From NCBI GenBank assembly GCA_002869265.1, contig PKTH01000040.1, positions 69,120 to 133,119 on the forward strand: a stretch of 64,000 nucleotides of DNA, given 5' to 3'. Shown here in pieces: positions 6,157 through 19,140 of the stretch. Source of the DNA: Candidatus Parcubacteria bacterium (GTDB lineage Bacteria > Patescibacteriota > Patescibacteriia > Patescibacteriales > BM507). Each line of letters opens with the position of its first letter. The first letter of the stretch is position 1. The notes beneath the pieces were generated by a model that ran no database searches, was not told where the DNA came from, and saw only the letters and a program-made list of their open reading frames with translations. The position numbers and the translations under genes are program-made.

Positions 6157-7254
6157 ATGCTTCAAATATTTATTTTTGTTTCCATATTTTCTTTAATTGT
6201 TTTTGCCAGTCACTTACCACTGTATTTCTTTTTGATAAAATTTTTTGGTTTTTCAAACAAAAATCTCTTGCTTCTAATAATGGCTCTACTCTCTCTATCT
6301 CATATTTCGGCCAATCTGATAATTCATAAATTCGACAATATAATTACTCGTATTTTTTATTTACTTAGTGCTGTTTGGCTGGGCATTCTTGTTTGTTTCT
6401 TAATACTAATCTTTTTTTCCTCTATCCTGCTTATCGCTGCAAATCTTCTTGGGTTTTCTATTAATTTAAAAATTGCTGGATTGTTTATTATTTTACTTTC
6501 GCTAGCCTGGAGTTCTTTTAACTACATAAATTCTCGACAACTCAATATTAAGGAATTAGAAATATCAATTAAAAACCTTCCCGCTCGATGGGAGAATAAA
6601 AAAATTGTTCAGATTTCTGATGTCCACCTAGGTGTAATCCACGGTATGGATTATATGGAGAAAATAGTTGATAAAACAAACTCCCTGTCTCCAGAGGCTG
6701 TCTTTATTACAGGTGACTTATTTGACGGAGCTGGCGATAATTTAGCAAGATCAGTTTCCCCGCTTAACAATCTTTCTTCAAGGCTTGGCACATATTTTAT
6801 AACCGGAAATCATGAAACTTATCTAGGAAAAGAAAATACTAAAAAGGCTCTTTCTGGCATAAATATTACAGAGCTAAAAGATAGAGTCGTTGACTTGAAT
6901 GGAATTAGTCTTATCGGCATCAACTATATTCTTAGAGGAGAACAAAAAAATATTAAAGACATTCTAGATAAAGCAGATATGGAAAAGCCAAAAATACTAT
7001 TATTACACGAACCAATTAAAGTAGATTATTTTAGAGAAAGCGGAATTAATCTAATGCTTTCTGGTCACACCCATAGAGGTCAAATGTGGCCATTTAACTA
7101 TATTACAAAACAAATATATAAAGGCTATGACTATGGCTTGCACACCATGGATGATTTCAATATCTACACTACCAATGGTGCAGGAACTTGGGGCCCTCCC
7201 TTTAGAAGCATGCAGGCTTCTGAGATAGTCTCAATAACTCTTAAAAGAAAATAG
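6157..7254 (+). CDS. Membrane-anchored metallophosphoesterase (calcineurin-like)
   Basis: About 4 N-terminal TM helices followed by the phosphoesterase motifs ISDVHLG, GDLFDG, GNHE and GHTHRGQ. Confidence 0.8.
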   Translation: MLQIFIFVSIFSLIVFASHLPLYFFLIKFFGFSNKNLLLLIMALLSLSHISANLIIHKFDNIITRIFYLLSAVWLGILVCFLILIFFSSILLIAANLLGFSINLKIAGLFIILLSLAWSSFNYINSRQLNIKELEISIKNLPARWENKKIVQISDVHLGVIHGMDYMEKIVDKTNSLSPEAVFITGDLFDGAGDNLARSVSPLNNLSSRLGTYFITGNHETYLGKENTKKALSGINITELKDRVVDLNGISLIGINYILRGEQKNIKDILDKADMEKPKILLLHEPIKVDYFRESGINLMLSGHTHRGQMWPFNYITKQIYKGYDYGLHTMDDFNIYTTNGAGTWGPPFRSMQASEIVSITLKRK

Positions 7255-7276
7255 GCCAAATCAATTTACCCTAGTC

Positions 7277-8452
7277 TTAAAACATTCCTAAAAATGATCC
7301 AACCTTTTTCATATCCTCGATAACATCCCTACTGCTGTCATCGGGGTTTTTTAATTTTTTGTTTACTTTTTCAATTATTTTATGGAAGCTTTTATCTTCT
7401 TTCAATTTATCAAATTCATCACTTATCCAAATACGAGCAATATTTTCATCAACAGCGCCACTTTCTACATCGTTTACCAAAGAAGCTAATATCTTCAACT
7501 TTGTAAAAGATTTATGATAATAACGGTCACTCTCGAGTGCATCTTGAACGTCTGCTAAATATATAAGGTCGGCAATATCACTCATACGCTGACCAATTAT
7601 TATTGAAGAGTAGGCCTTTGACTTTTTCCCACCTAAAGCACTATAAGTATCTCCATGATTCCCTGCGATTGCAGCCTCTTTTTCATACCCCAGTTTATAC
7701 AGGATATTAAATGATTCCTGCTCATGGGTTTTCATAATTTCCGTTAAAGAGACATCTTCTTCTATACCATATTCTTTTCTTAGTCTTCTGAATTCTTTTT
7801 TACTTATCCCGTGTCTGACAGGAGTAATTTGTACTGGTCTTATTTTCTTCGTTTTTAAAATACTTAAAATTTCATTTGGATTCTCAGCAAATGCTAATTT
7901 ATCGGCAAAGTGAAATATATTATATTTTTTTAAATATTTTTTTGTAGTAAAATCTATCTTGTTCTTTTGTCTTTTAACTGACTTATAAAATTTGAGAGCC
8001 CAGTCTTTATCTGTTAAAGAATTTCTTAAAATAAATTTCGGTATAGTTATTTTACCAATATCATGAAACAAGCAGGCTCTATAAAAAACATCCAGACTCC
8101 CAGCCTCTTCTTGGACCCCTTTTTTGATTTCGGAACCTCCCTCAAGAGCATTCTCCAACTTATCCCAAACAATCATAAATGAACCGACAGAGTGCTCATA
8201 GGTCTGCCTGTCAAATAATCTAAGCAGAGTTAATAATGCCCAGTCCTTCTCATTTAATTTAAAAGACTTATCAAATATATATCTACACTCCTCTTTTGTT
8301 TTTTCTTTTTCCTCTTGAAATTTACTACTGTGCGGAAACTTTTTAAGTAAAATGTTAATTTCTCTATATTTTTTCAAGCCAACAATATCAGATTCTTTAA
8401 AATCATTGGCAGATTCGCTGTTTTGATTCTTTTTTAATAATTGAGTAATCAT
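7277..8452 (-). CDS. HD-domain phosphohydrolase-like protein
   Basis: Contains LFHDIGKITIP (HD motif) and a later D-rich helix (LADVQDALESDRYY). No further family assignment is possible by eye. Confidence 0.55.
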   Translation of the reverse strand: MITQLLKKNQNSESANDFKESDIVGLKKYREINILLKKFPHSSKFQEEKEKTKEECRYIFDKSFKLNEKDWALLTLLRLFDRQTYEHSVGSFMIVWDKLENALEGGSEIKKGVQEEAGSLDVFYRACLFHDIGKITIPKFILRNSLTDKDWALKFYKSVKRQKNKIDFTTKKYLKKYNIFHFADKLAFAENPNEILSILKTKKIRPVQITPVRHGISKKEFRRLRKEYGIEEDVSLTEIMKTHEQESFNILYKLGYEKEAAIAGNHGDTYSALGGKKSKAYSSIIIGQRMSDIADLIYLADVQDALESDRYYHKSFTKLKILASLVNDVESGAVDENIARIWISDEFDKLKEDKSFHKIIEKVNKKLKNPDDSSRDVIEDMKKVGSFLGMF

Positions 8453-8535
8453 AATTATATTATATACTTTTTGTTAAAAATCCAAAAGAGAAAAACAAAA
8501 AAGAGCCTCTAGACTCTTTTTTGTTTTCGCTTTAT

Positions 8536-9099
8536 TTATCTTATGTTAACAAATTCAGCTATGTTTCTATCTTCAATTGATTGATCAATCCAAACGCTAA
8601 TAATAGACCCAACCTTCAAATCTTCTAAACTTGCTTCTTCTGACAACATTTCCTCGGTATCACCTGAATACTTTAACATCGGTATACCAACGGGAACTAA
8701 CAAATCTTTTTGTTCTGTGCTTCTTTCCAAAAGATTCTGAACTCTTTCTTCATCACTAATAGACTCGTCTCTATTTCTACCACCACCCATCCCAGGAACT
8801 CCTCCACCTGGCATTGCAGTGCCCAGGGTTAGAGCTGCTGCTTCTTTCTCTTCGCTGTCGTCCTCAACTTGGTCATCTTTTTCCTGTCTTTCTATTATGG
8901 AAACTGTTATTTGATTACCAATCATTGATTTCACAACCCCATTAATATCAACCTCTCTATCTGGCTGAGTAAATTGTCCATCATTAATAGAGGATGTTGA
9001 TGTTGTAATGGTATTGTTATTAGAAACATTTGACTGAGAACAAGCCGATAATAAAAAACCAGCTACTACTAATAAAGTAATTAATCTTTTTTTATTCAT
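8536..9099 (-). CDS. Lipoprotein with Gly/Met-rich segment (paralog of 12887..13501)
   Basis: Signal peptide plus lipobox LLSAC, and a PGGGVPGMGGGRNR stretch. The C-terminal half shares LVPVGI.ML, EASLED.K, VW and EDR.IA.FV.I.R with the other lipoprotein. Confidence 0.6.
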   Translation of the reverse strand: MNKKRLITLLVVAGFLLSACSQSNVSNNNTITTSTSSINDGQFTQPDREVDINGVVKSMIGNQITVSIIERQEKDDQVEDDSEEKEAAALTLGTAMPGGGVPGMGGGRNRDESISDEERVQNLLERSTEQKDLLVPVGIPMLKYSGDTEEMLSEEASLEDLKVGSIISVWIDQSIEDRNIAEFVNIR

Positions 9100-9104
9100 A
9101 AAAT

Positions 9105-10301
9105 TTATTCACTCCTTAGAGCATCAACAGGGTCTAGGCGACTTGCTTTTAGGGCTGGATAAAAACCAAAAGTAATACCAACTAGAGCAGAAAAGGAAAA
9201 CCCTAATAGTGGACCTGTAAATGAAGAAGCCATTGCTAAAATATTTAAATTTGAAATTATCGGAATAGCCGATTGTCCCAAAATCACACCTATTAAACCA
9301 CCAATTGTAGAAAGAATAACAGATTCCATAAGAAACTGAGATAGAATGTCAGCTTGTTTTCCTCCGATAGCTTTAGCTATTCCTATTTCTTTTGTTCTCT
9401 CAGCCACAGTTACAAACATTACATTCATAATACCAATCCCTGAAACAACCAAGGTAATAGCAGCCACCAGGGTTAATATGGTGGACATTAACTCCGCAGA
9501 GTCTTGAGCGGCTCCAACCATCGATCCTGCATCAAAAATCCTAAAATCATCTTCGGCCGAGGCCTTTAAACCATGTTCCTCTCTTAGAATTTCTGTTACC
9601 TCTTCGGTCGCCAATTCAACATTGTCAACGTTGTTCACCTCTAAGGCTAACATTGTTTGAGCCCGATCTCCCAATATGCTTGAATTGGCAATCAAATATG
9701 GGATATAAATAGCCTCATCCTTGCTTAGTCTTCCTAGGGTTCCTCCGCTTTCTTTTAAGACACCAATTATTTCAATTTTTTTGCCGGCAATAGTAAGAAT
9801 AACACCAATAGCCTCTTCTCCCTCTTCAAAAAATGCGGAATACACATCACTACCAATAACCGCTACCTTGTCTTTAGTTTCATCTTCATCAAAAAACCTC
9901 CCCTTCTCTAAATCAAGATTGGAAACAGAAAAATAATCTGGATCCGTCCCAACCAAACTAACTGAACTTTCTATAGAATTATAACTAACAGTCCCATTCC
10001 CTTGAACCATTCCAGTGGCAGACTCTATATATGTGGAATTTTCCTTTATCGCAGGAACATCATCTAAACTCAATTTTGAACTAGCCGTTGCCCCCGGTCT
10101 CCCCCCTGCTCCCATAACCATAATAGACTTTGCTGAAAGACCAGAAAATTGCTCATCAACAGCATTGCGAGCAGCTTGTCCTATGGCAAAAACAGCAATA
10201 ACTGTAGCGACGCCGATAATAATACCAAGCATTGAAAGAAAACTTCTTGTTTTATTTGAGAATAATGACTCAAAAGCCATCTTAAATATTTCAAATCTCA
10301 T
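9105..10301 (-). CDS. ABC transporter permease, MacB/FtsX family
   Basis: One N-terminal TM, a roughly 220-aa periplasmic domain, then a C-terminal 3-TM FtsX-type bundle ending in the typical ASRLDPVDALRSE tail. Confidence 0.85.
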   Translation of the reverse strand: MRFEIFKMAFESLFSNKTRSFLSMLGIIIGVATVIAVFAIGQAARNAVDEQFSGLSAKSIMVMGAGGRPGATASSKLSLDDVPAIKENSTYIESATGMVQGNGTVSYNSIESSVSLVGTDPDYFSVSNLDLEKGRFFDEDETKDKVAVIGSDVYSAFFEEGEEAIGVILTIAGKKIEIIGVLKESGGTLGRLSKDEAIYIPYLIANSSILGDRAQTMLALEVNNVDNVELATEEVTEILREEHGLKASAEDDFRIFDAGSMVGAAQDSAELMSTILTLVAAITLVVSGIGIMNVMFVTVAERTKEIGIAKAIGGKQADILSQFLMESVILSTIGGLIGVILGQSAIPIISNLNILAMASSFTGPLLGFSFSALVGITFGFYPALKASRLDPVDALRSE

Positions 10302-10303
10302 AT

Positions 10304-11014
10304 CTAGTAATTGCTTTTTAGTTTATAATTCCTATCAATAACTTTGCCATCTCGTAAAAAAATTATTCTATCGGCAAACTTAGCAACCTCAGCCGTATGG
10401 GTAACCATCACAACAGTTTTACCATCTTTCTTGAAGTTTTTGAATATTTCCATCACCTCAAGTCCAGACTTAGAATCAAGAGCCCCTGTTGGTTCATCGG
10501 CCAGGATGATCTCTGGTTCATTTACCAATGCTCTGGCCACAGCTACTCTTTGTTGTTGACCACCAGAAAGTTCAGTCGGCTTATGCCCAAGTCTATCCCC
10601 CAAACCAACCCTGTTAAGCAAATCTTTTGCTTTCTCTTCTCTTTCCTGTCTGTCTGCTCCGGCATAAAGTGCTGGCAAAGCAACGTTTTTTATAGCAGTC
10701 TTTCTTGTAAACAAATTAAATTGCTGAAAAATAAAACCCATTTTCTTGTTTCTAATATAAGCCAGAGTAAAGTCATCTCTCACCGAACCTATATCTTCAC
10801 CATCAAGCAAATACTCACCTTCAGATAATGGGTGTAAACAGCCTATGATATTTAGAAGAGTAGTTTTACCCCCGCCAGATTCTCCCATCAAGGCAACAAA
10901 TTCTCCCTCCTTAATCCTTAAATCAATTCCTTTTAAGACAGGTATTTCTTCTCCATTGCTTAGGTAATATGATTTCTTGACATCTTTTAATTCGATTGCG
11001 ATATTATCCTTCAT
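10304..11014 (-). CDS. ABC transporter ATP-binding protein (MacB/LolD-like)
   Basis: Walker A GESGGGKTT, Q-loop, signature LSGGQQQRVAVARA, Walker B ILADEPTGALD and an H-loop. Confidence 0.92.
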   Translation of the reverse strand: MKDNIAIELKDVKKSYYLSNGEEIPVLKGIDLRIKEGEFVALMGESGGGKTTLLNIIGCLHPLSEGEYLLDGEDIGSVRDDFTLAYIRNKKMGFIFQQFNLFTRKTAIKNVALPALYAGADRQEREEKAKDLLNRVGLGDRLGHKPTELSGGQQQRVAVARALVNEPEIILADEPTGALDSKSGLEVMEIFKNFKKDGKTVVMVTHTAEVAKFADRIIFLRDGKVIDRNYKLKSNY

Positions 11015-11019
11015 AAACT

Positions 11020-12882
11020 TTAATAAATAATTTTATCTCCAGCGCTAAGACCGCTAATCACTTCAACATATTTACCGTCTGTAAACCCAGTAATGACAGT
11101 AACCCAATCTCCTATCTCCGTCTGCACTGAAGGCTTTCCTGAAACATTTCTAACAGCGCTCACTGGTACCACTAAAACATCATTAGCCTCAGAGGTCACA
11201 AAATCGATGTAAGCACTCATGCCTTCTCTTATTTCATTCTCTCCTTTCGAAAATAGTACTCTCACTAAGTATGTCACAATACCATTATTGTTTGTTTCAG
11301 AGGTAAGGGAGATAAAGCTAATTTCTCCTTCTAGTTTTAGTTCATCCAGAGCATCAAAGGTGGCGTAAGCCTTTTGTCCAATTTTTAATATTGCGATATC
11401 AGCCTCTTCAATATCAACCTCAATAAACAAAGTATCATTATTAATAATAGTAGCAACTGTTTTACTATTATCTGTTATTATATCGCCGGCATCATAATTT
11501 AGTTCAACAATCTGGCCATCAATAGGAGAAACTAAGACTGCCTTATCTAATTCATTTTGAGCTTTTTCAAGTGAGATTGAAGAGCTGGTCAACCTGGATC
11601 TAGCGGATGCTAGTTCTGATTCACTTAATGGCTCCTTCAGTTCTTCTAGACTTCTTTCTGCTTGTTCTAAGGACATTTCTTTGGTGGTCACATTAGCTTC
11701 TGCGTTTTTTATACTTCTCTCACCGTCCTGCTTGGTGGTTTCTAAATCTCTTAATGCTTCCTCATATTCCGTCTCGTAATCGTCTAGGCTGTCGATAGTA
11801 TCATTTATTTCATTTTCTTTACTATTTAATGTGGTTATCTTTGAATTAATACTTGTCCTATTGCTAGAAATTGAATTAATAAGAGAATCAAGGCTAGATT
11901 GACTAAAATCAATGCTTGTAACAGTCGCATCTAACATTAATTTCATGTCATACAAATGATCTTCGAAACTTTCTAGGGTAAGTATTGTTTGTTTTAATGC
12001 TTCATCAATCATATAGTAGCTACTAGAAAAATTAATAGTTACCGCTTGCTTATTTAGCTCAATACTATCTTCCTTTGCCTTATTATAACTTTTTAATGCG
12101 TCTGTTTTAGTCGAAGAGTCTTTTACGCCAAGCAGGTTTTCATAATCATCATTTAAATTCTTTTGATCAACTCCTAATATTTCATCACTTTTCTTTAAAA
12201 TTGATTCAATAGAAATATTTGTGGATTTAATAAACTCAACCAATGACTCATAGGCATCTTTCACTTGTTCGCTGTCTTCTACATTAATGTTGTCCTCCCA
12301 GGCTTCTTTGGCTTCATCTAATTTCTTCTGTGCGTTATATATATTATCTTCTACATTAGTTTTCGTTGATTCAAGGCTATCCTTGGCTTGCTCCAATGAC
12401 AATATTGCACTGGTTATCTTATCTTGAGCATCTGAAATCTCATCATCAGTTGCCCCAGCCATTGTTTCATTATAATCAGCTAAAGTAGACTGATAAGAGC
12501 TCCAGGCGCTTCTTAGGCTCAAATCTAGGGTATCAGAATTAACTGAAGCAATTTTATCTCCTTTGTTGATTTTATCACCTTCGTTTACAAACACTTCACT
12601 TACTTCCAGATTATCACCAGAAACCGAAAAGCTTAGTTCTACACCATCTTTGGCGACCACTTTACCATCTGCTTCTACAGAAACCATAATATCATCTTGC
12701 TTTACTATCCATTGTTTTATTGTTTTCTCTACTACATTCTCCTCTTTTTTGTTTAAAAAGAAATAAGATCCTCCCCCTACAAGTAAAATAAAAATTATTA
12801 AATACACTATTTTTTTATTTCTCCAAAAACCTAATAAGCCTGTTTGTTTTGCTTTTTTGCTTTCTTCTATTATTGATGCCAT
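11020..12882 (-). CDS. Membrane-fusion (HlyD/MacA-like) adaptor with very long coiled coil
   Basis: N-terminal TM, a lipoyl-like motif (VNEGDKINKGDKIASV), more than 300 aa of coiled-coil-like sequence, then a second lipoyl half and beta-barrel (VLVSPIDGQIVELNYDAGD). Confidence 0.7.
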   Translation of the reverse strand: MASIIEESKKAKQTGLLGFWRNKKIVYLIIFILLVGGGSYFFLNKKEENVVEKTIKQWIVKQDDIMVSVEADGKVVAKDGVELSFSVSGDNLEVSEVFVNEGDKINKGDKIASVNSDTLDLSLRSAWSSYQSTLADYNETMAGATDDEISDAQDKITSAILSLEQAKDSLESTKTNVEDNIYNAQKKLDEAKEAWEDNINVEDSEQVKDAYESLVEFIKSTNISIESILKKSDEILGVDQKNLNDDYENLLGVKDSSTKTDALKSYNKAKEDSIELNKQAVTINFSSSYYMIDEALKQTILTLESFEDHLYDMKLMLDATVTSIDFSQSSLDSLINSISSNRTSINSKITTLNSKENEINDTIDSLDDYETEYEEALRDLETTKQDGERSIKNAEANVTTKEMSLEQAERSLEELKEPLSESELASARSRLTSSSISLEKAQNELDKAVLVSPIDGQIVELNYDAGDIITDNSKTVATIINNDTLFIEVDIEEADIAILKIGQKAYATFDALDELKLEGEISFISLTSETNNNGIVTYLVRVLFSKGENEIREGMSAYIDFVTSEANDVLVVPVSAVRNVSGKPSVQTEIGDWVTVITGFTDGKYVEVISGLSAGDKIIY

Positions 12883-12886
12883 ATTT

Positions 12887-13501
12887 TTATCTTGTTATTA
12901 ATACGAAATCCGCTATCATTCTGTCCTCCACTTCCTCGTTTAACCAAACCTGAATCATAGTATTTTCTTTTATGTCTTCTAGACTAGCTTCAACCATCTC
13001 AGCTCCGAGTTCTGAGCTGGAAGGTCTTAGCATTTGAATACCTACAGGGACTAAGATTGTCTCTTCTCCCGTACTCATACTTTTAAATCTCTCGAGCATA
13101 GCCTCTTCATCAAAGTCCTCCCCCTCTAGCCTTTGTCCTCTTCCCATACCCATTCCAGGGCCCATCCCTGGAACTCTTCTCCCGGTGCTTAAAACAGGAG
13201 CATTAGTATTAGAATCGTTGTTTGTTTCACTTCTTCTAAAGTCCTCTGTATCACCCTCCTGATTTTGTGGCCTTTCTATTTTTAATATAGTAACCTCGTT
13301 CCCAGTTAAAGTTTTAACTAAGCCCCTCACATCAGAAGCTCTATCGGGTTGCCCAAAATCTGGTCTCCTAAAATCGTCTATTTGCCCCTGTCTCGTGGGA
13401 GAACTACTTGTTACGGTATTGCTATTTGACCCATTAGAGCAGCCGGTCAAAAGTGTTAATGCAAAAAAAGTAAACACTCCAAATATAAATGTTTTTTTCA
13501 T
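12887..13501 (-). CDS. Lipoprotein with Gly/Met-rich segment (paralog of 8536..9099)
   Basis: Lipobox LLTGC and a Met/Gly-rich stretch VPGMGPGMGMGRGQR. Has the same conserved C-terminal blocks as the 187-aa lipoprotein. Confidence 0.6.
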   Translation of the reverse strand: MKKTFIFGVFTFFALTLLTGCSNGSNSNTVTSSSPTRQGQIDDFRRPDFGQPDRASDVRGLVKTLTGNEVTILKIERPQNQEGDTEDFRRSETNNDSNTNAPVLSTGRRVPGMGPGMGMGRGQRLEGEDFDEEAMLERFKSMSTGEETILVPVGIQMLRPSSSELGAEMVEASLEDIKENTMIQVWLNEEVEDRMIADFVLITR

Positions 13502-13555
13502 AGTTTATTATTTAAAATCAAGGGAAGTACAAAAAGTACCTCCTCTGATTTCAAA

Positions 13556-14185
13556 TTAATTATCTGAATTAATCATTCCTTGCCATTTTCCTCCCATTCT
13601 CCCCTTTCCAAATCCATCTCTCATCCCCATCTCAAGACCAAGATCTTCTTTTATTTGATTTGCCTCTTCAAAATCTCCGGCCTCAAATAATTCATGAGAT
13701 TCTACTAGTTTTTGAAAGTCTTCTTCTGTTTGGATTATTTCTGACATTCTGGTATCTCCGACCTCTTCTTTCCAAGCTTCGTAATCACCAGACTCAATTG
13801 CCTCATAGCCTATTTGATTGTGACCATCTCTGCCGTGCATACCTCCGCCATCTCTCATCCCCTTGGGCCCCATCTCTGGTAAGCCAAGTTCTTCCCTTAG
13901 AACCTCTGCTTCTTCGAAGTCTCCTGATTGCATTAGGTTGTGCATTTCAGAATACTCTGAAAAGTTATCCTCTGTGATTAAATCTGTTATTCTTGGAATT
14001 GAGTTTTGAATACTCTTCCATGTGCCATAATCTCCATCTTCTATGGCTGCCTCGACAGCATCTCTTTGTTCCTCGTCTAGACCATAGCCTCCAAAATGTG
14101 CGCTTGTAATAGCTGTTACACCAAATGTGGCGACTATAGCAGAAATGGCAATAATGCCTGTAAATTTCTTTGAATTGTTTTTCAT
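13556..14185 (-). CDS. Secreted/anchored protein with two ~75-aa internal repeats and G/M/H/R-rich tails
   Basis: N-terminal hydrophobic segment. Repeats: AIEDGDYGTWK...TEDNF...SGDFEEAEVLREELGLPEMG versus AIESGDYEAWK...TEEDF...AGDFEEANQIKEDLGLEMG. Each is followed by a tail such as GMRDGGGMHGRDGH or GMRDGFGKGRMGGKWQGM. Confidence 0.5.
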   Translation of the reverse strand: MKNNSKKFTGIIAISAIVATFGVTAITSAHFGGYGLDEEQRDAVEAAIEDGDYGTWKSIQNSIPRITDLITEDNFSEYSEMHNLMQSGDFEEAEVLREELGLPEMGPKGMRDGGGMHGRDGHNQIGYEAIESGDYEAWKEEVGDTRMSEIIQTEEDFQKLVESHELFEAGDFEEANQIKEDLGLEMGMRDGFGKGRMGGKWQGMINSDN

Positions 14186-14235
14186 ATATATTTATTATTT
14201 ATTATTACCTAGGTTTGTCCGGGCCCGAACACTAA

Positions 14236-14267
14236 GTAATACGCAAACAATTTCTTTTTCTTTCAAA
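14236..14267 (-). promoter_or_regulatory. Candidate ECF-sigma promoter TTTGAAAG-N15-GCGTATTAC (copy 2)
   Basis: The minus strand reads TTTGAAAGAAAAAGAAATTGTTTGCGTATTAC. The blocks and spacing match those at 15849..15880. Lies upstream of the 13556..14185 gene. Confidence 0.4.
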
Positions 14268-14270
14268 ATA

Positions 14271-14295
14271 AAAAAACCTCCCAATGGGAGGTTTT
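14271..14295 (-). terminator. Rho-independent terminator
   Basis: CCTCCC-AAT-GGGAGG hairpin with a flanking A-run and T-run, just downstream of the 14307..15245 gene. Confidence 0.65.
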
Positions 14296-14306
14296 AAACA
14301 AATCAA

Positions 14307-15245
14307 CTATCTTTCTAAGATCGGCTCAGAGCTTGTACCGTGCCTTTCAAGAAACATCATTAGCTCTCTTCCGAACTGCCCTTCCGAACTTGTGGCATGT
14401 CCATCAAGAAAAGTTTTCAAGAATTCTCCCATCTCTGGTCTTTCTTCGATAATCCTTCTCATCTCATCTATTTTTTGCATCTTTCTCTCTGGGTCTTCCA
14501 TCATATGCATCCCCCGACCCATCATTCCTCTTTCTAAAAATGCTCCCCCCGGTCTAAGCGGTCTAAAATCTTTTGCCTCAAAAATATTATTACTGAGAAT
14601 ATTCCCAATCAAACTAATCTTCATGTTATTTTCTAGTTTTGGCATTCTAAAAATTTCTTCCTTATTGTATACAATCAGCCAATCAACATTTTCTGCATCT
14701 CGAAAATTAAACTCAGCGTCAGAAACTATCCCCATAACTTGCCCAGTTAAGTATCCTTTTTCTGGGTTATTCCAAAACAGTGGTTTTCTATTTATTATTT
14801 CTTTATAAAAAGGGGCTCTGCTGCCAAGGATGTCGTCAATGGCCTGTCCCATTCCAATCTTATAAAAAATACCACCCAATAGAACGCTAGCGAACACACT
14901 GATTAAAACCACTACGGGCAAGCGATAACGATATCCTTTATTTGTGTGCCTTATATAATAATCGGCCACCAAGACAAAAATAATTAAAAACACAATCCAA
15001 AAATATGGAAGGGTAAGCAAAATAAACTGTGGTATACTGTCGCTGATATAATGATACTCTTCCCAGCCGTTATAGCGCAGCATATAAATAATGACTGATA
15101 GGGCGAGGGCCCCTATAACCAAAGAAATAAGGCCAGCAAACCAAACAACGTAATTGCGCAACAAAAAGGTCCACTTTGGCTTTGGAATAATCTTGTGTTT
15201 TTTAATTGACTCAAGCACTTTTTGGCTTAGTTCTTTTTTGTTCAT
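14307..15245 (-). CDS. Polytopic membrane protein downstream of ECF sigma (possible anti-sigma/sensor)
   Basis: Its start abuts the sigma stop codon. About 4 TM helices, a soluble C-terminal part and a Met-rich stretch RGMMGRGMHMMEDPE. No recognisable anti-sigma motif, so the role is inferred from position only. Confidence 0.45.
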   Translation of the reverse strand: MNKKELSQKVLESIKKHKIIPKPKWTFLLRNYVVWFAGLISLVIGALALSVIIYMLRYNGWEEYHYISDSIPQFILLTLPYFWIVFLIIFVLVADYYIRHTNKGYRYRLPVVVLISVFASVLLGGIFYKIGMGQAIDDILGSRAPFYKEIINRKPLFWNNPEKGYLTGQVMGIVSDAEFNFRDAENVDWLIVYNKEEIFRMPKLENNMKISLIGNILSNNIFEAKDFRPLRPGGAFLERGMMGRGMHMMEDPERKMQKIDEMRRIIEERPEMGEFLKTFLDGHATSSEGQFGRELMMFLERHGTSSEPILER

Positions 15246-15246
15246 A

Positions 15247-15831
15247 TTATTTAAATTGAATATTTTGACTTTCTATTTCTTTTTCCATCTTCTTTTTAGC
15301 TCTGTTTATCAAAGTGGCTACAGTTCCCATTGGTTTTTTAATAATATCAGATATCTCTTTATAATCACGTTCTTCTAAAAACTTCAAAACTAAAACATCC
15401 CTATATTTTGGTTCTAACTGATTCAAAACCTTTCCAAGAAGCTCCTTATTTAACTGAGCATCAACCTCTTTTAGAACGTCGAATTCCCCCGATATATTAT
15501 TAAACTCCTCTTCGGTTATCTCAAATACTTGTCCTTCCGCTCTAGATTTCAATTTTCTAAAACTACTTATGACATGATTGTGGGTTATTCTGTAAATCCA
15601 GGAACTAAATTTGAGAGAAGGATCATATGAGTTTAAATTCTGATAAACTTTTATAAAAACTTCCTGTAAAATATCTTCTGCTTCTTCAAAAGAAAAATTT
15701 GATATCCTCCTTATATATCTAAAAAGCCGCTCTTCGTGTCTTTTCATGATACACAAAAAATAGCTTTGGTTTTCAGAAGCTAGTCTAACTAATTCTTCAT
15801 CGCTTTTTTCCTGACAATCTATACCTTGCAT
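15247..15831 (-). CDS. ECF-type RNA polymerase sigma-70 family factor
   Basis: Region 2 (EDILQEVFIKVYQNL...FSSWIYRITHN) and a region 4 HTH (YRDVLVLKFLEERDYKEISDIIKKPMGTVATLINRAKKKM). Confidence 0.85.
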   Translation of the reverse strand: MQGIDCQEKSDEELVRLASENQSYFLCIMKRHEERLFRYIRRISNFSFEEAEDILQEVFIKVYQNLNSYDPSLKFSSWIYRITHNHVISSFRKLKSRAEGQVFEITEEEFNNISGEFDVLKEVDAQLNKELLGKVLNQLEPKYRDVLVLKFLEERDYKEISDIIKKPMGTVATLINRAKKKMEKEIESQNIQFK

Positions 15832-15848
15832 TTTTTTGTTTATACTGT

Positions 15849-15880
15849 GTAATACGCAATTTTACTACTTTTCTTTCAAA
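15849..15880 (-). promoter_or_regulatory. Candidate ECF-sigma promoter TTTGAAAG-N15-GCGTATTAC (copy 1, autoregulatory position)
   Basis: The minus strand reads TTTGAAAGAAAAGTAGTAAAATTGCGTATTAC, about 18 nt upstream of the sigma ATG at 15831. Confidence 0.4.
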
Positions 15881-15885
15881 AAGAA

Positions 15886-15905
15886 AAGGGGCGCTGTGGC
15901 CCCTT
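15886..15905 (-). terminator. Rho-independent terminator
   Basis: AAGGGGC-GCTGTG-GCCCCTT hairpin followed by a T-rich tract on the minus strand. Lies after the small gene 15913..16092. Confidence 0.6.
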
Positions 15906-15912
15906 AGTGTTT

Positions 15913-16092
15913 TTAGAAGATAAGATTAATGATTTTTTCAATAATATGTGCAATCGGCTCAGTGAAGGTGCCAACCCACATCTCCAAGGCAAAGGCTGGA
16001 GAAAGCATTAGCAGGGCTACAGCCCCGGTAAGCAATTTGATTAGATCATTACACTCTCCACTCTCTTCAATATCATCAATATAATCGCTCAT
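15913..16092 (-). CDS. Small hydrophobic protein (59 aa), unknown function
   Basis: The internal ATG at 16092 is preceded by AAAGGAGAGTGAG, and the product has one hydrophobic helix. The ORF-track start at 16122 has no SD. Confidence 0.4.
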   Translation of the reverse strand: MSDYIDDIEESGECNDLIKLLTGAVALLMLSPAFALEMWVGTFTEPIAHIIEKIINLIF

Positions 16093-16134
16093 CTCACTCT
16101 CCTTTCTCAAAAAAATGTACAATTCAGTGTGTAT

Positions 16135-16163
16135 ATATTAACACAAAAGGCCTAATGAGTCAA
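16135..16163 (-). promoter_or_regulatory. Sigma70-type promoter TTGACT-17-TAATAT
   Basis: On the minus strand, TTGACT is at 16163..16158 and TAATAT at 16140..16135, upstream of the 59-aa gene. Confidence 0.45.
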
Positions 16164-16224
16164 TGGTTAATTAAAAATGCTAAACAACATTTTTTAATTA
16201 ACTGTGATATATAAGCATATTTGG

Positions 16225-17775
16225 CTACTCCTCAAGTACCTGATCAATCATTAATGGCTCTTCCATGGTTCTCATAATAACTGGCTCGACAACACCAGTC
16301 CCTCGACTCTGAAGCATCTCATCAATAAGGGGTATAACTATATTGTTTTGATAAAAATTTACACCCTCTGGTTTTTCTAAAATTGGAAATATTAATGCGG
16401 GCACTAAAAGCTCCTGACTTACACCATCTCTATAATCCCAATATTGAACTAACTCTTGTTTCGGTTCTCCAAGGAGAATATCAATTTTTTCGGCTTTCTC
16501 ATCAAAATATCTGTTAAGACCACCTTGTTCTAGTACAGCCAATACTTTTTCAATGTCAGTAACAGCCTTATACTGAGATTTTTCATAATCGTTAACCGAC
16601 AAGGAACTTAATCCTGATACTTTATTATATTTAATATTCACATTAACCCTAACTCCACTAAGACCGCCACTCTGATCATACACACTTTGATTATCAACAA
16701 GCGTTGGATAAATAACAGAGATTGTCTCAGGGATATAGGCATTTGTTTTATTCTCAGTTCTTTCATAATTTTCAAACCACCTTTTATCAATCTCTGGCTC
16801 TCCAAAGTCGCCAATATCTATTCCTCTCTCCCTCATAAAACTATTAGCAATTTTTATCAACGATGCATCAGAAGGAACATCTTCCAGGCTCAATCGCTGA
16901 GCTTCAAAACATTTTTCGTCTTGGCATTTTTCTAAATCAGTGTCTCTCCATCTTTCCCAATTTTGATTTATAGAAATAACGCCCTCCCCTAGATTAACAT
17001 TGACCCAATAACCAAAATCTCGATCCTCTACTAAACTAATATTTTGTAACATCGTATTTTCAAAACTGCCAAGATCCAATAATCCTAAATCAGCCTTAGT
17101 AAATTGACCAGCAAATGCTTTAGCTGCACTCAAATTTTTTACTTTTCGGTAAACATCTAATTCATCACTATTTAAAACCAACTCTCCCTCATAAACGTAT
17201 CGAAAAGAATAGCGTGGATAAGGAGCTATCATTTTAGTGCTAATCATATCATCTGTTGCAATTTCTGATACAGCTGCATCAGAAGCCAACATCGCAGTCG
17301 ATCCAATGCCTCCTCCCCCCGAAGCTCGAGGAACGGCCTCTTCACCCATTGTTAAATTTTGACTATCTTCAATTGCCAGATCCCCCAAACTACCAAATGC
17401 ACTACCTGAAAGATTAGAAATCTTTGGAGAAAGGCTTAGCTTTAAAATATCCCCTTGCTGCTCTATTGGATTAAAATTGCCAGATGGAAAAAAATTAAAG
17501 GCTATAAACAAGACTGCCACCATGGCAGCTCCTGCCACTGCATAATAAATCCTTTGTGGAAATAAATAACTTTTATTTATTGTATCAGCATCTCCTATCT
17601 TCTCTTGCTTTGATAATTCAAACTTTAATTCAGAAACAAATTTTTCATCAATCACTACCTTGGGTTTGTTGTCTAATAATTTTTCTATTATTTTAACCAA
17701 TCCTTCCTCTTGGTCTTTAAAAGTCTTATCCAGAGAGTAAAGATCATTTAGTATGTTTTTTACTTCTTTTTTCAT
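16225..17775 (-). CDS. Putative anti-sigma factor / single-pass membrane protein with large extracytoplasmic domain
   Basis: Starts 4 nt after the ECF sigma stop. Has a roughly 80-aa cytoplasmic N-terminus, one TM (IYYAVAGAAMVAVLFIAFNFF) and about 410 aa outside. The call rests on layout only. Confidence 0.45.
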   Translation of the reverse strand: MKKEVKNILNDLYSLDKTFKDQEEGLVKIIEKLLDNKPKVVIDEKFVSELKFELSKQEKIGDADTINKSYLFPQRIYYAVAGAAMVAVLFIAFNFFPSGNFNPIEQQGDILKLSLSPKISNLSGSAFGSLGDLAIEDSQNLTMGEEAVPRASGGGGIGSTAMLASDAAVSEIATDDMISTKMIAPYPRYSFRYVYEGELVLNSDELDVYRKVKNLSAAKAFAGQFTKADLGLLDLGSFENTMLQNISLVEDRDFGYWVNVNLGEGVISINQNWERWRDTDLEKCQDEKCFEAQRLSLEDVPSDASLIKIANSFMRERGIDIGDFGEPEIDKRWFENYERTENKTNAYIPETISVIYPTLVDNQSVYDQSGGLSGVRVNVNIKYNKVSGLSSLSVNDYEKSQYKAVTDIEKVLAVLEQGGLNRYFDEKAEKIDILLGEPKQELVQYWDYRDGVSQELLVPALIFPILEKPEGVNFYQNNIVIPLIDEMLQSRGTGVVEPVIMRTMEEPLMIDQVLEE

Positions 17776-17779
17776 ATTT

Positions 17780-18337
17780 TTAAAAAATTAATATTAATAA
17801 GATCACTTCAATTGGTAAATTTTTCTTCATTTCTTTTATGGTTCTAGAAAACATCACTTTAACACTCCCTTCATTTTTCCCTAGAATCTCTGAAATCTCC
17901 CTATAGCTCATTCCCTGCCATATTCTCATTATCACAATATCCCTCTTTTCACTTTTTATTTCAGCTAAATATTTTTTAACCAATAATATTTTTTCCTTAT
18001 TTTCTAAATCAACTAATAGGTCTTCACCGGAATCAATGTCCCAGAAATCTTCGATATTAGCCGTCTTCTTTGAAGATCGATAATGGTCAATAACTGTATT
18101 GCGAGCAATCTGGAAAAGCCAAGCTGCAAAATATTTCTCTTTTTTACCAAAGCTCTGAATATTTTTTACTGCTTTGAAAAATGTTTTACTAGTCAAATCT
18201 TCAGCAGTTTCCCGATGACTGGTCTTATAATAGATAAAATTATATATCTTATCTATATAGTCATCATATAATTCACCAAAACGTTCCAGGTCTCCTTTTT
18301 GACATGATTTAATTATTTCAATTTCTTTAAGTGTCAT
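17780..18337 (-). CDS. ECF-type RNA polymerase sigma-70 family factor
   Basis: Region 2 (AEDLTSKTFFKAVKNI...AWLFQIARNTVIDHYR) and region 4 (RDIVIMRIWQGMSYREISEILGKNEGSVKVMFSRTIKEM). Confidence 0.85.
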   Translation of the reverse strand: MTLKEIEIIKSCQKGDLERFGELYDDYIDKIYNFIYYKTSHRETAEDLTSKTFFKAVKNIQSFGKKEKYFAAWLFQIARNTVIDHYRSSKKTANIEDFWDIDSGEDLLVDLENKEKILLVKKYLAEIKSEKRDIVIMRIWQGMSYREISEILGKNEGSVKVMFSRTIKEMKKNLPIEVILLILIF

Positions 18338-18399
18338 TTATTTAAGCTTAAATTATCACTTCTATCATTTTAAACGTATAAATATGATAAAAGTAACAT

Positions 18400-19029: not shown

Positions 19030-19087
19030 ATAATTATTTTATGATGATTTTATTAAAAAGACATTATTATTAATTAAAACCTTTTTC

Positions 19088-19116
19088 TTGAAAATTTTCA
19101 ATATTTAGGCTAAAAT
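19088..19116 (+). promoter_or_regulatory. Sigma70-type promoter TTGAAA-17-TAAAAT
   Basis: Hexamers at 19088..19093 and 19111..19116, about 25 nt upstream of the pheA ATG. Confidence 0.4.
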
Positions 19117-19140
19117 ATACTAACTATAATAAAGAAAACT

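What the first reader, a model, noticed from the sequence alone, without database searches (positions are those of the whole stretch)
8536..15831. ECF-sigma-headed operon coupling a MacAB-type exporter to four Met/Gly-rich envelope proteins (possible soft-metal stress module)
Eight co-oriented genes make up this operon: an ECF sigma, a 4-TM protein, a secreted two-repeat protein, a lipoprotein, a 620-aa MFP, an ABC ATPase, a MacB-type permease and a second paralogous lipoprotein.

All four non-transporter proteins carry short Met/Gly(/His/Arg)-rich tracts:
- RGMMGRGMHMMEDPE
- GMRDGGGMHGRDGH and GMRDGFGKGRMGG
- VPGMGPGMGMGRGQR
- PGGGVPGMGGGRNR

Met/His-rich tracts are a known feature of periplasmic Cu(I)/Ag(I)-handling proteins. 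That makes a metal-responsive export system a testable idea. The paralogous lipoproteins bracketing the pump are not part of canonical MacAB systems.
Basis: inference. Interest (0 to 1): 0.6.

Follow-up and report, generated by a model that had tools for sequence, protein, structure and literature searches.

The report
ECF-sigma-controlled MacB pump module of CPR bacteria
This is a stress-switched export pump with three uncharacterised helper proteins, conserved across many ultra-small (CPR) bacteria; the glycine/methionine-rich tracts are real, but nothing here ties them convincingly to copper or silver.

Summary
All eight genes and the four quoted Gly/Met tracts are present at 8536-15831 on the minus strand. 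They are the only such tracts among 207 ORFs in the window. The contig is from a Candidatus Parcubacteria bacterium.

There are two transcription units, not one operon: sigma plus a 3-TM putative anti-sigma, and then the other six genes. Each follows an intrinsic terminator and starts at the same ECF promoter, TGAAAG-N16-CGTATTAC, which resembles B. subtilis SigW promoters. In 55 related CPR genomes a looser form of this motif lies upstream of the sigma, repeat-protein and lipoprotein genes, but not upstream of internal genes.

The order lipoprotein-MFP-ABC-MacB is nearly universal in those genomes. The sigma/anti-sigma pair and the repeat protein are frequent. The second lipoprotein appears only in the nearest relative.

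The soft-metal idea is poorly supported:
- The anti-sigma tract is absent from all orthologues, including the closest.
- The lipoprotein tract core is 50% Gly and 12% Met, with almost no His and no Cys.
- The repeat-protein tails are Gly/Arg/Lys-rich, with variable Met.
- No fold or profile search links any of these proteins to Cu/Ag proteins.
- Related genomes carry a separate CsoR-CopA operon that lacks the ECF motif.

Best reading: a CPR-specific, ECF-induced MacAB/YknXYZ-like detoxification exporter with an unusually long MFP and orphan accessory proteins.

The parts
15886..15905 (-). Intrinsic terminator ending the upstream unit. It insulates the sigma promoter from read-through.
   Evidence: 7-bp stem with 5 GC pairs, followed by a T-run. 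Sequence seen.
15853..15878 (-). ECF-type promoter P1, TGAAAG-N16-CGTA(TTAC), upstream of the sigma gene. Inferred to be autoregulatory.
   Evidence: The looser motif A[AG]GA[AT]-N14-15-CGTA lies upstream of the sigma gene in 22 of 33 related loci, against 1.1% of background windows. It resembles the SigW -35 TGAAAC / -10 CGTA (PMC5758882).
15247..15831 (-). ECF sigma factor, 194 aa.
   Evidence: Sigma70_r2 (E 8e-16) and Sigma70_r4_2 (E 3e-13). TIGR02937 sigma70-ECF, 98 bits against a cutoff of 42.9. The best named model is SigW at 102 bits, below its cutoff of 209.
14307..15245 (-). Putative anti-sigma factor of a new family, 312 aa. It has a Lys-rich N-terminal cytoplasmic helix, 3 TM segments, a conserved cytoplasmic loop (KHTKKGYRY in orthologues) and an extracytoplasmic beta-rich domain ending in P-G-R-x-F-F. 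The C-terminal tail carrying RGMMGRGMHMM is specific to this genome.
   Evidence: There is a 1-nt gap to the sigma gene. It lies directly downstream of sigma in most sigma-bearing related loci. Alignments are, topology. No Pfam family matches. All 42 homologues are unnamed CPR proteins.
14273..14295 (-). Intrinsic terminator after the sigma/anti-sigma unit.
   Evidence: 10-bp stem with 5 GC pairs, then TTTATTTT.
14240..14265 (-). ECF-type promoter P2, TGAAAG-N16-CGTA(TTAC), driving the six-gene pump unit.
   Evidence: Its spacing and extended -10 are identical to P1. The motif lies upstream of the repeat-protein gene in 13 of 20 loci and of the lipoprotein gene in 30 of 53.
13556..14185 (-). 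Secreted two-repeat helical protein, 209 aa. Each unit carries GDYxAW...ITExNF...H...ELGL and is followed by a disordered Gly-rich basic tract.
   Evidence: AF2 model: two helical bundles at residues 38-100 and 127-182, with tract pLDDT below 50. The unit occurs in 45 family proteins, once in 29 and twice in 16. No Pfam, PDB-sequence or Foldseek match.
13523..13543 (-). Weak hairpin between the repeat-protein and lipoprotein genes. It may attenuate transcription or stabilise the RNA.
   Evidence: 8-bp stem with a poor T-run. Function not tested.
12887..13501 (-). Lipoprotein 1, 204 aa. A small beta-barrel is split by a ~45-aa disordered insert with an acidic part followed by a Gly/Met/Arg part. 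This is the universal partner of the pump.
   Evidence: Lipobox LLTGC; Cys21 is at least 90% conserved. AF2: strands at 58-75 and 143-202; residues 83-128 have pLDDT below 50. It lies directly upstream of the MFP gene in essentially every locus that contains one. The family has 525 clusters at 50% identity.
11020..12882 (-). Membrane fusion protein, 620 aa, with a single N-terminal TM segment and a ~330-aa alpha-hairpin.
   Evidence: HlyD_D23; RND_mfp 139 bits against a cutoff of 94.9. In the alignment to MacA (5nik), residues 47-115 match MacA 28-93 and residues 371-619 match MacA 102-361. The length is conserved across loci.
10304..11014 (-). ABC ATPase, 236 aa, MacB/LolD/DevA-type.
   Evidence: ABC_tran, E 5e-33; the best model is the MacB NBD region at 265 bits.
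9105..10301 (-). MacB-type permease, 398 aa.
   Evidence: MacB_PCD (E 4e-40, profile positions 1-206 of 207) and FtsX (E 7e-17). MacB 234 bits, against LolCE 55, FtsX 26 and DevC 19.
8536..9099 (-). Lipoprotein 2, 187 aa, a paralogue of lipoprotein 1. This is a lineage-specific addition.
   Evidence: 37% identity, E 5e-28. No second copy was found in the 55 genome loci. A 186-aa counterpart exists in the nearest relative, L056.
8491..8528 (-). Terminator at the end of the pump unit.
   Evidence: 17-bp stem followed by a T-run.

Best explanation
This is a self-contained envelope-stress export module specific to CPR (Patescibacteria) bacteria.

Proposed mechanism:
1. An ECF sigma factor is held by a new type of 3-TM anti-sigma protein. 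The C-terminal beta-rich domain of that protein faces outward.
2. On an envelope signal the sigma is released.
3. The sigma then transcribes its own two-gene unit and, from an identical promoter, the unit encoding the secreted repeat protein, lipoprotein, MFP, ABC ATPase, MacB permease and a second lipoprotein.
4. The MacB dimer and the MFP form a MacAB/YknXYZ-like pump. The MFP has an alpha-hairpin of about 330 aa, roughly three times that of MacA.
5. This pump expels a noxious amphipathic compound from the outer membrane face through a long tube across the cell wall. The most likely substrate is an antimicrobial peptide or similar agent.
6. The lipoprotein is a dedicated accessory subunit. 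Its flexible Gly/Met loop, and the Gly-rich tails of the repeat protein, act as malleable binding or docking elements rather than as classical metal sites.

Shown: gene content, family membership, conserved synteny, the promoter motif and its positions, the terminators, and disorder and composition of the tracts.

Inferred: the anti-sigma role, the signal, pump assembly, the substrate class and the role of the tracts.
For: Families:
- The sigma is ECF type. The MFP, ABC ATPase and permease score best against MacA/MacB models, not against Lol, FtsX or DevC models.

Synteny:
- Lipoprotein-MFP-ABC-MacB is the order in essentially all of the 55 species-level loci where the contig allows.
- The sigma/membrane-protein pair lies directly upstream in about 30 loci.
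- The repeat protein is present in 27 loci.

Regulation:
- Two identical promoters, TGAAAG-N16-CGTATTAC, sit just after terminators in the window. The broader pattern TGAAA-N17-CGTA gave 3 matches in 64 kb against 0.45 expected.
- The looser motif lies upstream of sigma in 22 of 33 loci, of the repeat protein in 13 of 20 and of the lipoprotein in 30 of 53.
- It is essentially absent upstream of internal genes: anti-sigma 0 of 30, MFP 1 of 51, ABC 0 of 47, MacB 0 of 45. Background is 1.1%.
- It is present upstream of both the sigma and lipoprotein genes in L004, L011 and L015, where these lie about 6 kb apart.
- It resembles SigW promoters (PMC5758882).

Precedents:
- SigW controls yknWXYZ, a MacAB-like transporter that protects against the SDP peptide (PMC8144471; PMC4887032).
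- The pneumococcal MacAB-like pump confers LL-37 resistance, and its MFP forms a tube into the wall (PMC5768738).
- The MFP orthologue in L056 has a weak hit to the YknX beta-barrel family.

Tracts:
- They are disordered.
- They are module-specific. Only 5 of about 2,570 other locus ORFs have one, and all five are divergent repeat proteins.
- In the lipoprotein core Met is 12%, against 0.6-1.8% for each of Phe, Val, Ile and Leu.
Against: - No substrate, inducer or protein-protein contact has been shown.
- The anti-sigma role rests on gene order, gene spacing and topology only. The protein has no recognisable anti-sigma domain.
- The strong preference for Met over other hydrophobic residues in the lipoprotein loop is not explained by a plain linker. 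It would also fit thioether-based binding of Cu(I) or Ag(I), or a role as an oxidant sink.
- A CsoR-CopA operon abuts the module in six related loci.
- The lipoprotein and the repeat protein have no structural relatives that could guide function.
Confidence: 0.55

Rival explanations
1. Soft-metal (Cu(I)/Ag(I)) stress module. The Gly/Met tracts of the lipoproteins and the repeat protein would bind Cu(I) or Ag(I) through thioethers. They would buffer the metal or hand it to the MacB pump. The anti-sigma protein would sense metal stress.
For: - Met is strongly enriched in the lipoprotein core: 12%, with 122 of 184 members having at least 2 Met, often as GMGMG (MxM).
- The tracts are specific to this module.
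- A CsoR / HMA-DsbD_2-cupredoxin / CopA operon lies within 0.1-1 kb downstream of MacB in L018, L026, L027, L039 and L042, and upstream of sigma in L021.
- From my own knowledge, not tested here: Met-rich segments occur in CueO, CopA/PcoA and Ctr1, and a Gly/Met/His tail occurs in ZraP.
Against: - The anti-sigma tract is unique to this genome (0 of 31 orthologues), so it cannot be the conserved sensor.
- In the lipoprotein core His is 0.4% and Cys is 0. 26 of 184 members have no Met there, and Met is replaced by Phe, Ile or Val in some.
- The repeat-protein tails have only 6% Met, and several have none. The conserved residues of its repeat unit look structural, and His is only 66% conserved.
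- No Pfam or NCBIfam hit to CusF, CopC, HMA, PcoE/SilE or CnrX-type families. No fold or PDB-profile match.
- All six CopA-adjacent loci belong to one clade and show about two arrangements. The cop operon is convergent, has its own sigma-70-like promoter and a palindromic operator, and has no ECF motif.
- The window has no P-type ATPase or HMA motif.
- To my knowledge, no MacB-family pump is known to export metal ions.
Confidence: 0.1
2. Two-step secretion system. The pump's cargo would be the co-transcribed repeat protein, or another Sec-exported small protein. It would be taken from the wall space and pushed through the long MFP tube to the cell surface, as MacAB-TolC does with enterotoxin STII. 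The lipoprotein would act as an adaptor.
For: - The repeat protein has a signal peptide and is the first gene of the ECF-driven unit.
- It frequently co-occurs with the pump (27 loci).
- From my own knowledge: MacB pumps are reported to export peptides from the periplasm. A review that surfaced (PMC5985334) covers this but was not read here.
- The very long MFP suggests delivery beyond the wall.
Against: - The repeat-protein gene is missing from about half of the loci that keep the lipoprotein and pump.
- It often has its own promoter.
- Control by a dedicated stress-type sigma/anti-sigma pair fits detoxification better than constitutive secretion.
- The folded two-bundle protein is much larger than known MacB peptide cargos.
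Confidence: 0.1
3. Mechanotransmission device rather than a pump. Like FtsEX or LolCDE, the MacB dimer would use ATP to change the conformation of an extracytoplasmic partner, here the lipoprotein. The result would be remodelling of the wall or S-layer under stress.
For: - A dedicated extracytoplasmic partner is encoded next to a MacB-type transporter.
- From my own knowledge: MacB relatives such as FtsEX and LolCDE work this way (mentioned in PMC5768738).
Against: - A full-length MFP with lipoyl, beta-barrel and hairpin parts is always present. FtsEX and LolCDE do not use an MFP.
- The permease scores as MacB (234 bits), not as LolCE (55) or FtsX (26).
- The lipoprotein has no recognisable enzyme domain.
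Confidence: 0.1

Closest known systems
Bacillus subtilis SigW-dependent YknWXYZ (MacAB-like four-component transporter, SDP toxin protection)
   Same: - An ECF sigma with a TGAAAC/CGTA-type promoter controls a monoderm MFP + ABC + MacB-type permease set together with an extra membrane-associated component (PMC8144471; PMC4887032; PMC5758882).
- The sigma's best named model is SigW.
- The MFP orthologue has a weak YknX beta-barrel hit.
   Different: - The sigma scores below the SigW cutoff (102 against 209 bits).
- The anti-sigma candidate is a 3-TM orphan, not a single-pass RsiW-type protein.
- The fourth component is a beta-barrel lipoprotein plus a secreted helical protein, not a Yip1-type YknW.
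- From my own knowledge: YknX is under 400 aa, against 620 aa for this MFP.
- Here the sigma/anti-sigma genes are usually adjacent to the pump, and within this window the motif points to no other target.
Streptococcus pneumoniae Spr0693-0694-0695 MacAB-like pump
   Same: It is a monoderm MacB-type pump with separate NBD and permease and a hexameric MFP tube reaching into the wall. It confers resistance to an antimicrobial peptide (PMC5768738).
   Different: - The Spr0693 alpha-barrel is 56 A high and the whole assembly about 154 A. The ~330-aa hairpin here would, by inference, give roughly 240 A.
- No lipoprotein, repeat protein or ECF regulator is described for the pneumococcal operon in the passages read.
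Escherichia coli MacAB-TolC
   Same: The permease has MacB_PCD plus FtsX architecture. MacA is the best PDB sequence match for the MFP (E 1e-16). The ATPase's best model is the MacB NBD.
   Different: - No TolC-type outer-membrane factor is encoded in the locus.
- NBD and permease are separate genes.
- The hairpin is about three times longer.
- A dedicated lipoprotein and ECF control are added.
Metal-responsive envelope systems: CnrYXH-CnrCBA and CusCFBA (from my own knowledge, not tested by similarity here beyond family and fold searches)
   Same: The logic is similar: an ECF sigma or a small periplasmic protein is coupled to an MFP-containing efflux pump. CusF is a small beta-barrel.
   Different: - Those pumps are RND type, not MacB type.
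- Their metal sites are defined His/Met/Trp or His/Glu ligands inside folded domains. Here the Met residues lie in a disordered Gly-rich loop without conserved His or Cys.
- No profile or fold match to these families was found.

Membership tests
MacB-type (type VII ABC) exporter with MFP | Permease with an N-terminal TM segment, a large extracytoplasmic MacB_PCD domain and a C-terminal FtsX TM bundle | tested here: met
   MacB_PCD E 4e-40 (profile positions 1-206 of 207) and FtsX E 7e-17. MacB model 234 bits, far above the Lol, FtsX and DevC models.
MacB-type (type VII ABC) exporter with MFP | Cognate ABC ATPase, fused or encoded adjacent | tested here: met
   ABC_tran E 5e-33; best model is the MacB NBD at 265 bits. 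There is a 2-nt gap to the permease gene.
MacB-type (type VII ABC) exporter with MFP | Membrane fusion protein with lipoyl, beta-barrel and alpha-hairpin parts | tested here: met
   HlyD_D23, Biotin_lipoyl_2, and RND_mfp at 139 bits against a cutoff of 94.9; alignment to MacA on both sides of a ~330-aa hairpin.
MacB-type (type VII ABC) exporter with MFP | Outer-membrane factor (TolC) completing a tripartite pump | not tested
   No TolC-like gene was noticed among the module genes or annotated neighbours. No genome-wide search was made. From my own knowledge: CPR bacteria are generally regarded as lacking an outer membrane.
ECF (group 4) sigma factor | Only regions sigma-2 and sigma-4 are present | tested here: met
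   Sigma70_r2 and Sigma70_r4_2 only, in 194 aa. TIGR02937, 98 bits against a cutoff of 42.9.
ECF (group 4) sigma factor | Autoregulated promoter with an AAC-type -35 and a CGT-type -10 | tested here: met
   TGAAAG-N16-CGTA upstream of sigma. The motif is conserved upstream of sigma in 22 of 33 loci. Activity itself was not tested.
SigW equivalog | Score above the NCBIfam SigW cutoff | tested here: not met
   NF007223 scores 102 bits against a cutoff of 209; TIGR02948 scores 90 against 243.
Class I anti-sigma factor (ASD / zf-HC2 / RskA type) | N-terminal anti-sigma domain of about 80 aa before a single TM segment | tested here: not met
   No Pfam or NCBIfam hit in the window protein or in 26 orthologues. 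The cytoplasmic N-terminus is only about 30 aa, and there are 3 TM segments.
Bacterial lipoprotein | Signal peptide ending in a lipobox [LVI][ASTVI][GAS]C | tested here: met
   LLTGC and LLSAC are read directly from the sequences. The Cys is at least 90% conserved in the family. A few members (P0054, P0056, P0058) have Tyr instead.
Periplasmic Cu(I)/Ag(I) proteins (CusF, CopC/PcoC, PcoE/SilE, HMA/CopZ) | Membership of one of these families by profile | tested here: not met
   No such Pfam or NCBIfam hit at E up to 0.1 for any of the four orphan proteins.
Periplasmic Cu(I)/Ag(I) proteins (CusF, CopC/PcoC, PcoE/SilE, HMA/CopZ) | Conserved Met/His(/Cys/Trp) ligand set | tested here: not met
   - Lipoprotein core: His 0.4%, Cys 0, Met absent in 26 of 184 members.
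- Anti-sigma tract: absent in orthologues.
- Repeat-protein tails: Met 6%, His 2.4%.
Periplasmic Cu(I)/Ag(I) proteins (CusF, CopC/PcoC, PcoE/SilE, HMA/CopZ) | Actual metal binding | not testable with these tools
   This needs ITC, ICP-MS or a competition assay on recombinant protein.
Periplasmic Cu(I)/Ag(I) proteins (CusF, CopC/PcoC, PcoE/SilE, HMA/CopZ) | Fold similarity to CusF (OB beta-barrel) | tested here: inconclusive

The most novel reading that the evidence does not exclude
The Gly/Met-rich loops of the pump lipoprotein and the Gly-rich tails of the co-induced repeat protein may be functional capture elements for a soft ligand. The ligand would be Cu(I) or Ag(I) bound through thioethers, or reactive oxidants consumed by sacrificial Met residues. 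The loops would feed or protect a MacB-type pump. The whole system would be switched by a previously unrecognised class of 3-TM anti-sigma factor. That would be the first MacB-family system tied to metal or oxidant stress, and the first defined envelope-stress regulon of CPR bacteria.
Probability: 0.1. Interest if true: 0.7.

Novelty: new variant of a known kind. Interest (0 to 1): 0.4.

Why it matters
CPR/Patescibacteria have tiny genomes and are largely uncultured, so almost nothing is known about how they sense and answer envelope stress.

This locus offers a compact, conserved and testable regulon:
- a defined promoter motif
- a dedicated sigma factor
- a candidate anti-sigma factor of a new family
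- a MacB pump with an unusually long adaptor
- two orphan accessory protein families found, so far, only in CPR-labelled genomes

The very long MFP, seen both here and in the neighbouring RND pump, also hints at the distance these cells must bridge between membrane and surface. The promoter and sigma could be tested in a heterologous host without culturing the organism.

Tried and rejected
Searches that found nothing:
- Pfam and NCBIfam scans of the four orphan proteins, and Pfam on 26 anti-sigma orthologues: no family.
- Profile searches of the lipoprotein and repeat-protein alignments against PDB sequences: nothing meaningful. The mS26 hit at E 0.005 looks like a compositional match between charged helical segments.
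- AF2 models plus Foldseek against the PDB: no match at E <= 0.001 for either model.
- Literature searches for this module in CPR and in the ECF reclassification paper.
- Look-up of names for distant lipoprotein-family members: the only named ones are a Patescibacteria MAG 'hypothetical protein' and a JGI 'hypothetical protein'.

Ideas tested and dropped:
- The anti-sigma's outer domain is homologous to the lipoprotein barrel. hhalign gave probability 0.5%, so this was rejected.
- A shared short motif (G[RK]G[FM] or PG[RKM]G) links the anti-sigma, the lipoprotein and the repeat protein. Only a minority of each family has it, and MacB itself carries GRFF, so this was dropped.
- The ECF motif lies upstream of the neighbouring CsoR-CopA operons. 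It is absent there.
- A conserved His/Glu metal site exists in the repeat unit. His is only 66% conserved and the other conserved positions look structural.

Full report
**Observation**

Profile searches confirm the four recognisable parts:
- an ECF sigma with Sigma70_r2 and r4_2 (TIGR02937, 98 bits against a cutoff of 42.9)
- a 620-aa membrane fusion protein (HlyD_D23, RND_mfp)
- an ABC ATPase
- a MacB-type permease (MacB_PCD E 4e-40, plus FtsX)

The other four proteins match no Pfam or NCBIfam family. The two lipoproteins are paralogues (37% identity, E 5e-28). The 209-aa protein is an internal duplication (49% identity). The quoted Gly/Met tracts are all present.

The tracts are not a compositional accident. 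I scanned all 207 stop-to-stop ORFs of at least 60 aa in the 64-kb window. Only four have a 14-aa stretch with G+M >= 8, M >= 2 and G >= 4, and they are exactly these four proteins.

An exact database match names the source as a Candidatus Parcubacteria bacterium, i.e. CPR/Patescibacteria.

**Two corrections to the description**

First, the 312-aa membrane protein has three hydrophobic segments, not four. Its N-terminus is Lys-rich (9 K/R in 31 residues), the short second loop is basic, and the first loop is acidic. The last ~180 residues are therefore predicted to lie outside the cell.

Second, the eight genes are not one operon.
- A strong terminator (14295-14273) follows the membrane-protein gene.
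- It is followed immediately by TTTTGAAAGAAAAAGAAATTGTTTGCGTATTAC.
- The sigma gene is preceded by another terminator (15905-15886) and by TTTTGAAAGAAAAGTAGTAAAATTGCGTATTAC.
- Both sites are TGAAAG-N16-CGTATTAC.
- The broader pattern TGAAA-N17-CGTA gave three matches in the window against 0.45 expected. None of 100 shuffles reached three.
- This is close to the B. subtilis SigW promoter, -35 TGAAAC and -10 CGTA (PMC5758882).

The layout is therefore P1-sigma-membrane protein-terminator, then P2-repeat protein-lipoprotein 1-MFP-ABC-MacB-lipoprotein 2-terminator (8528-8491). Gaps within the second unit are 2-5 nt, except for 54 nt with a weak hairpin after the repeat-protein gene.

**Conservation elsewhere**

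- The lipoprotein has 59 homologues in the 90%-clustered collection. Every one that carries a name is from CPR.
- A profile of the family finds 525 clusters at 50% identity.
- A scan of one genome per species returned 55 loci labelled Parcubacteria/Paceibacterota, Falkowbacteria, Nealsonbacteria, Peregrinibacteria or Patescibacteria. Some carry what look like wrong bin labels.

I called ORFs in those loci and searched them with the window's proteins.
- Lipoprotein-MFP-ABC-MacB is the order in essentially every locus long enough to show it.
- The MFP is always about 620 aa.
- The sigma/membrane-protein pair sits directly upstream in about 30 loci. In four loci (L004, L011, L015, L029) a sigma homologue is found only about 6 kb downstream of MacB.
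- The repeat protein was detected in 22 loci. Five further Gly/Met-tract ORFs in the same slot carry the same repeat unit, giving 27.
- No locus has a second lipoprotein after MacB. Only the nearest relative (L056) does.

**Regulatory link**

The looser motif A[AG]GA[AT]-N14-15-CGTA was counted in the 180 nt upstream of each gene class.

| Upstream of | Loci with motif |
|---|---|
| sigma | 22 of 33 |
| repeat protein | 13 of 20 |
| lipoprotein | 30 of 53 |
| membrane protein | 0 of 30 |
| MFP | 1 of 51 |
| ABC | 0 of 47 |
| MacB | 0 of 45 |
| random 184-nt windows | 1.1% |

In L004, L011 and L015, where the sigma gene is unlinked, the motif is present upstream of both the sigma and the lipoprotein genes. 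In the window, the only sites upstream of a gene are the two module promoters. A third match lies inside the upstream MFP gene at about 2537.

I infer that the sigma is autoregulated and directly drives the pump unit. The adjacent 3-TM protein is the likely anti-sigma partner. It has no known anti-sigma domain, and all 42 of its homologues are unnamed CPR proteins.

*Membrane protein.* In 31 orthologues the conserved parts are:
- the N-terminal helix (KIKxxKIxPKPRW)
- three TM segments
- the KHTKKGYRY loop
- an outer beta-rich domain ending P-G-R-x-F-F-x-R

Everything after that is variable or absent. No orthologue has a Gly/Met tract, not even the closest at 51% identity. That tract is therefore a private feature of this genome.

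*Lipoprotein.*
- The AF2 model is a small beta-barrel (strands 58-75 and 143-202, pLDDT above 90). It is split by a 45-residue insert with pLDDT below 50.
- Across 184 family members the insert is always Gly-rich, and two of its Gly positions are nearly invariant.
- Its 16-residue core is 50% Gly, 12% Met, 6% Arg and 6.5% Pro.
- His is 0.4% and Cys is 0.
- 122 members have at least 2 Met in the core, and 26 have none.
- Met far exceeds Phe, Val, Ile and Leu, which are 0.6-1.8% each.

*Repeat protein.*
- The model shows two helical bundles with disordered tracts after each.
- Family tails are 31% Gly, 8% Arg, 7% Lys, 7% Asn, 6% Met and 2.4% His. Several tails have no Met.
- The conserved residues of the repeat unit (A, D, Y, A, W, N, F, L, G) look structural. 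The one His is 66% conserved.

The tracts are thus a compositionally conserved, module-specific hallmark of the lipoprotein and the repeat protein. They are more than an arbitrary linker, but they are not a Met/His ligand motif, and they are not a property of the sensor protein.

**Other tests of the metal idea**

- No profile, PDB-sequence or Foldseek search connected the orphan proteins to CusF, CopC, HMA, PcoE/SilE, CnrX, ZraP or Spy.
- The window has no P-type ATPase or HMA motif.
- In six related loci a canonical copper operon lies beside the module: CsoR, an HMA-DsbD_2-cupredoxin membrane protein and a CopA-type ATPase (Pfam). It is convergent just downstream of MacB in five loci and upstream of sigma in one.
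- All six loci belong to one clade of the pump tree, and there are about two arrangements.
- The cop operon has its own sigma-70-like promoter with a palindromic operator, and it has no ECF motif.

I count this adjacency as weak evidence for a loose 'metal neighbourhood'. It also shows that these organisms handle copper through a separate regulator. To my knowledge no MacB-family pump exports metal ions.

**What it most likely is**

The closest known system is the SigW-dependent YknWXYZ transporter of B. subtilis. It is an ECF-controlled, MacAB-like, four-component pump that protects against the SDP peptide (PMC8144471; PMC4887032). The pneumococcal Spr0693-0695 pump is also close. It confers LL-37 resistance, and its MFP forms a hexameric tube reaching into the wall (PMC5768738).

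The permease here scores as MacB (234 bits), not as LolCE (55), FtsX (26) or DevC (19). The L056 MFP has a weak YknX beta-barrel hit.

The MFP differs in one striking way. In the alignment to MacA, residues 47-115 and 371-619 match the two flanks. That leaves a hairpin of about 330 residues, roughly three times that of MacA. At 1.5 A per residue this gives about 24 nm, by inference. The Spr0693 alpha-barrel is 5.6 nm high.

My best explanation is an envelope-stress-induced detoxification exporter. It would be adapted to the CPR envelope, with a dedicated lipoprotein subunit and a co-induced secreted protein. Their flexible Gly/Met or Gly/basic segments would serve as malleable binding or docking elements.
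- Architecture and regulation: well supported.
- Substrate class and the role of the tracts: inference.

Rivals:
- soft-metal handling, about 0.1
- two-step secretion of the repeat protein, about 0.1
- FtsEX-like mechanotransmission to the lipoprotein, about 0.1

**Novelty and verdict**

The kind is known: an ECF-regulated MacAB-like pump in a monoderm. The variant is new in several respects:
- a candidate anti-sigma family with three TM segments and no known anti-sigma domain
- two orphan accessory families found here only in CPR-labelled genomes
- a very long MFP
- a conserved promoter that defines what may be the first describable ECF regulon in CPR

No paper in the searchable library describes it. 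I rate it 'new variant of a known kind', interest 0.4. The soft-metal reading remains possible at about 10% and would be considerably more interesting if true.

Noticed in passing
window 1180-6082 (+): A second efflux system: a 577-aa MFP (HlyD_D23) followed by a 1054-aa AcrB-type RND transporter (ACR_tran, E 3e-185). An RND pump with a long-hairpin MFP is unexpected in a bacterium thought to lack an outer membrane. The nearest relative, L056, has the same RND gene nearby.
   Followed up: partly
window 16225-18337 (-): Immediately upstream lies a second ECF sigma (185 aa; best NCBIfam model is BldN-family, with SigM-family second) followed by a 516-aa single-TM protein with no Pfam family. This looks like another sigma/anti-sigma pair. 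A homologue of the 516-aa protein sits just downstream of MacB in L017, and sigma-2 homologues occur in L035 and L044.
   Followed up: partly
window 15913-16122 (-): A small ORF of 59-69 aa (MSDYIDDIEESGECNDL... with a hydrophobic helix). It has its own sigma-70-like promoter with a TG extension (16163-16135) and ends at the terminator 15905-15886. It sits between the two sigma/anti-sigma pairs.
   Followed up: no
window 855-880 (-): A third exact match to TGAAA-N17-CGTA (TGAAACTATCAAATAAAATAATCGTA). No complete minus-strand ORF is listed downstream of it, so any target gene may run off the left end of the window.
   Followed up: partly
L018 14548-18611; L026, L027, L039, L042 about 15400-19550 (all minus strand); L021 221-5961 (+): A canonical copper operon lies directly beside the module in one clade: CsoR-type repressor, HMA-DsbD_2-cupredoxin membrane protein and CopA-type P1B ATPase. 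It has a sigma-70-like promoter overlapping a palindrome (ATACCTATACC..GGTATAGGTAT) that looks like a CsoR operator. In L039 a ZIP transporter follows.
   Followed up: yes
L031 4995-6149 (+); also P0243: Some orthologues of the putative anti-sigma protein carry a long Cys-rich C-terminal extension (for example ...CPFESRCLENKCRVVCP...CQCEHY...CRCVEGQC). Others have helical tails. The extracytoplasmic tail of this family is highly variable.
   Followed up: no
P0064, P0070, P0077 (repeat-protein family): Several family members end in a Cys-containing motif (GNCPFAD, GTGNCPFA or GCGGCPLN) after the Gly-rich tail. One is annotated from 'Methanococcoides sp. SA1', probably a mis-binned contig.
   Followed up: no
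window 22422-23972 (-): A ComEC-like competence protein appears split into two ORFs: DUF4131 (204 aa, 23358-23972) and Competence (278 aa, 22422-23258). In L056 a single 439-aa gene carries both domains. This may be a frameshift, a real split or an assembly error.
   Followed up: no
window 6157-8452: A membrane-anchored calcineurin-like phosphoesterase (365 aa, + strand) and an HD-domain protein (391 aa, - strand) lie directly downstream of the module. Both are syntenic in L056. No link to the module was examined.
   Followed up: no
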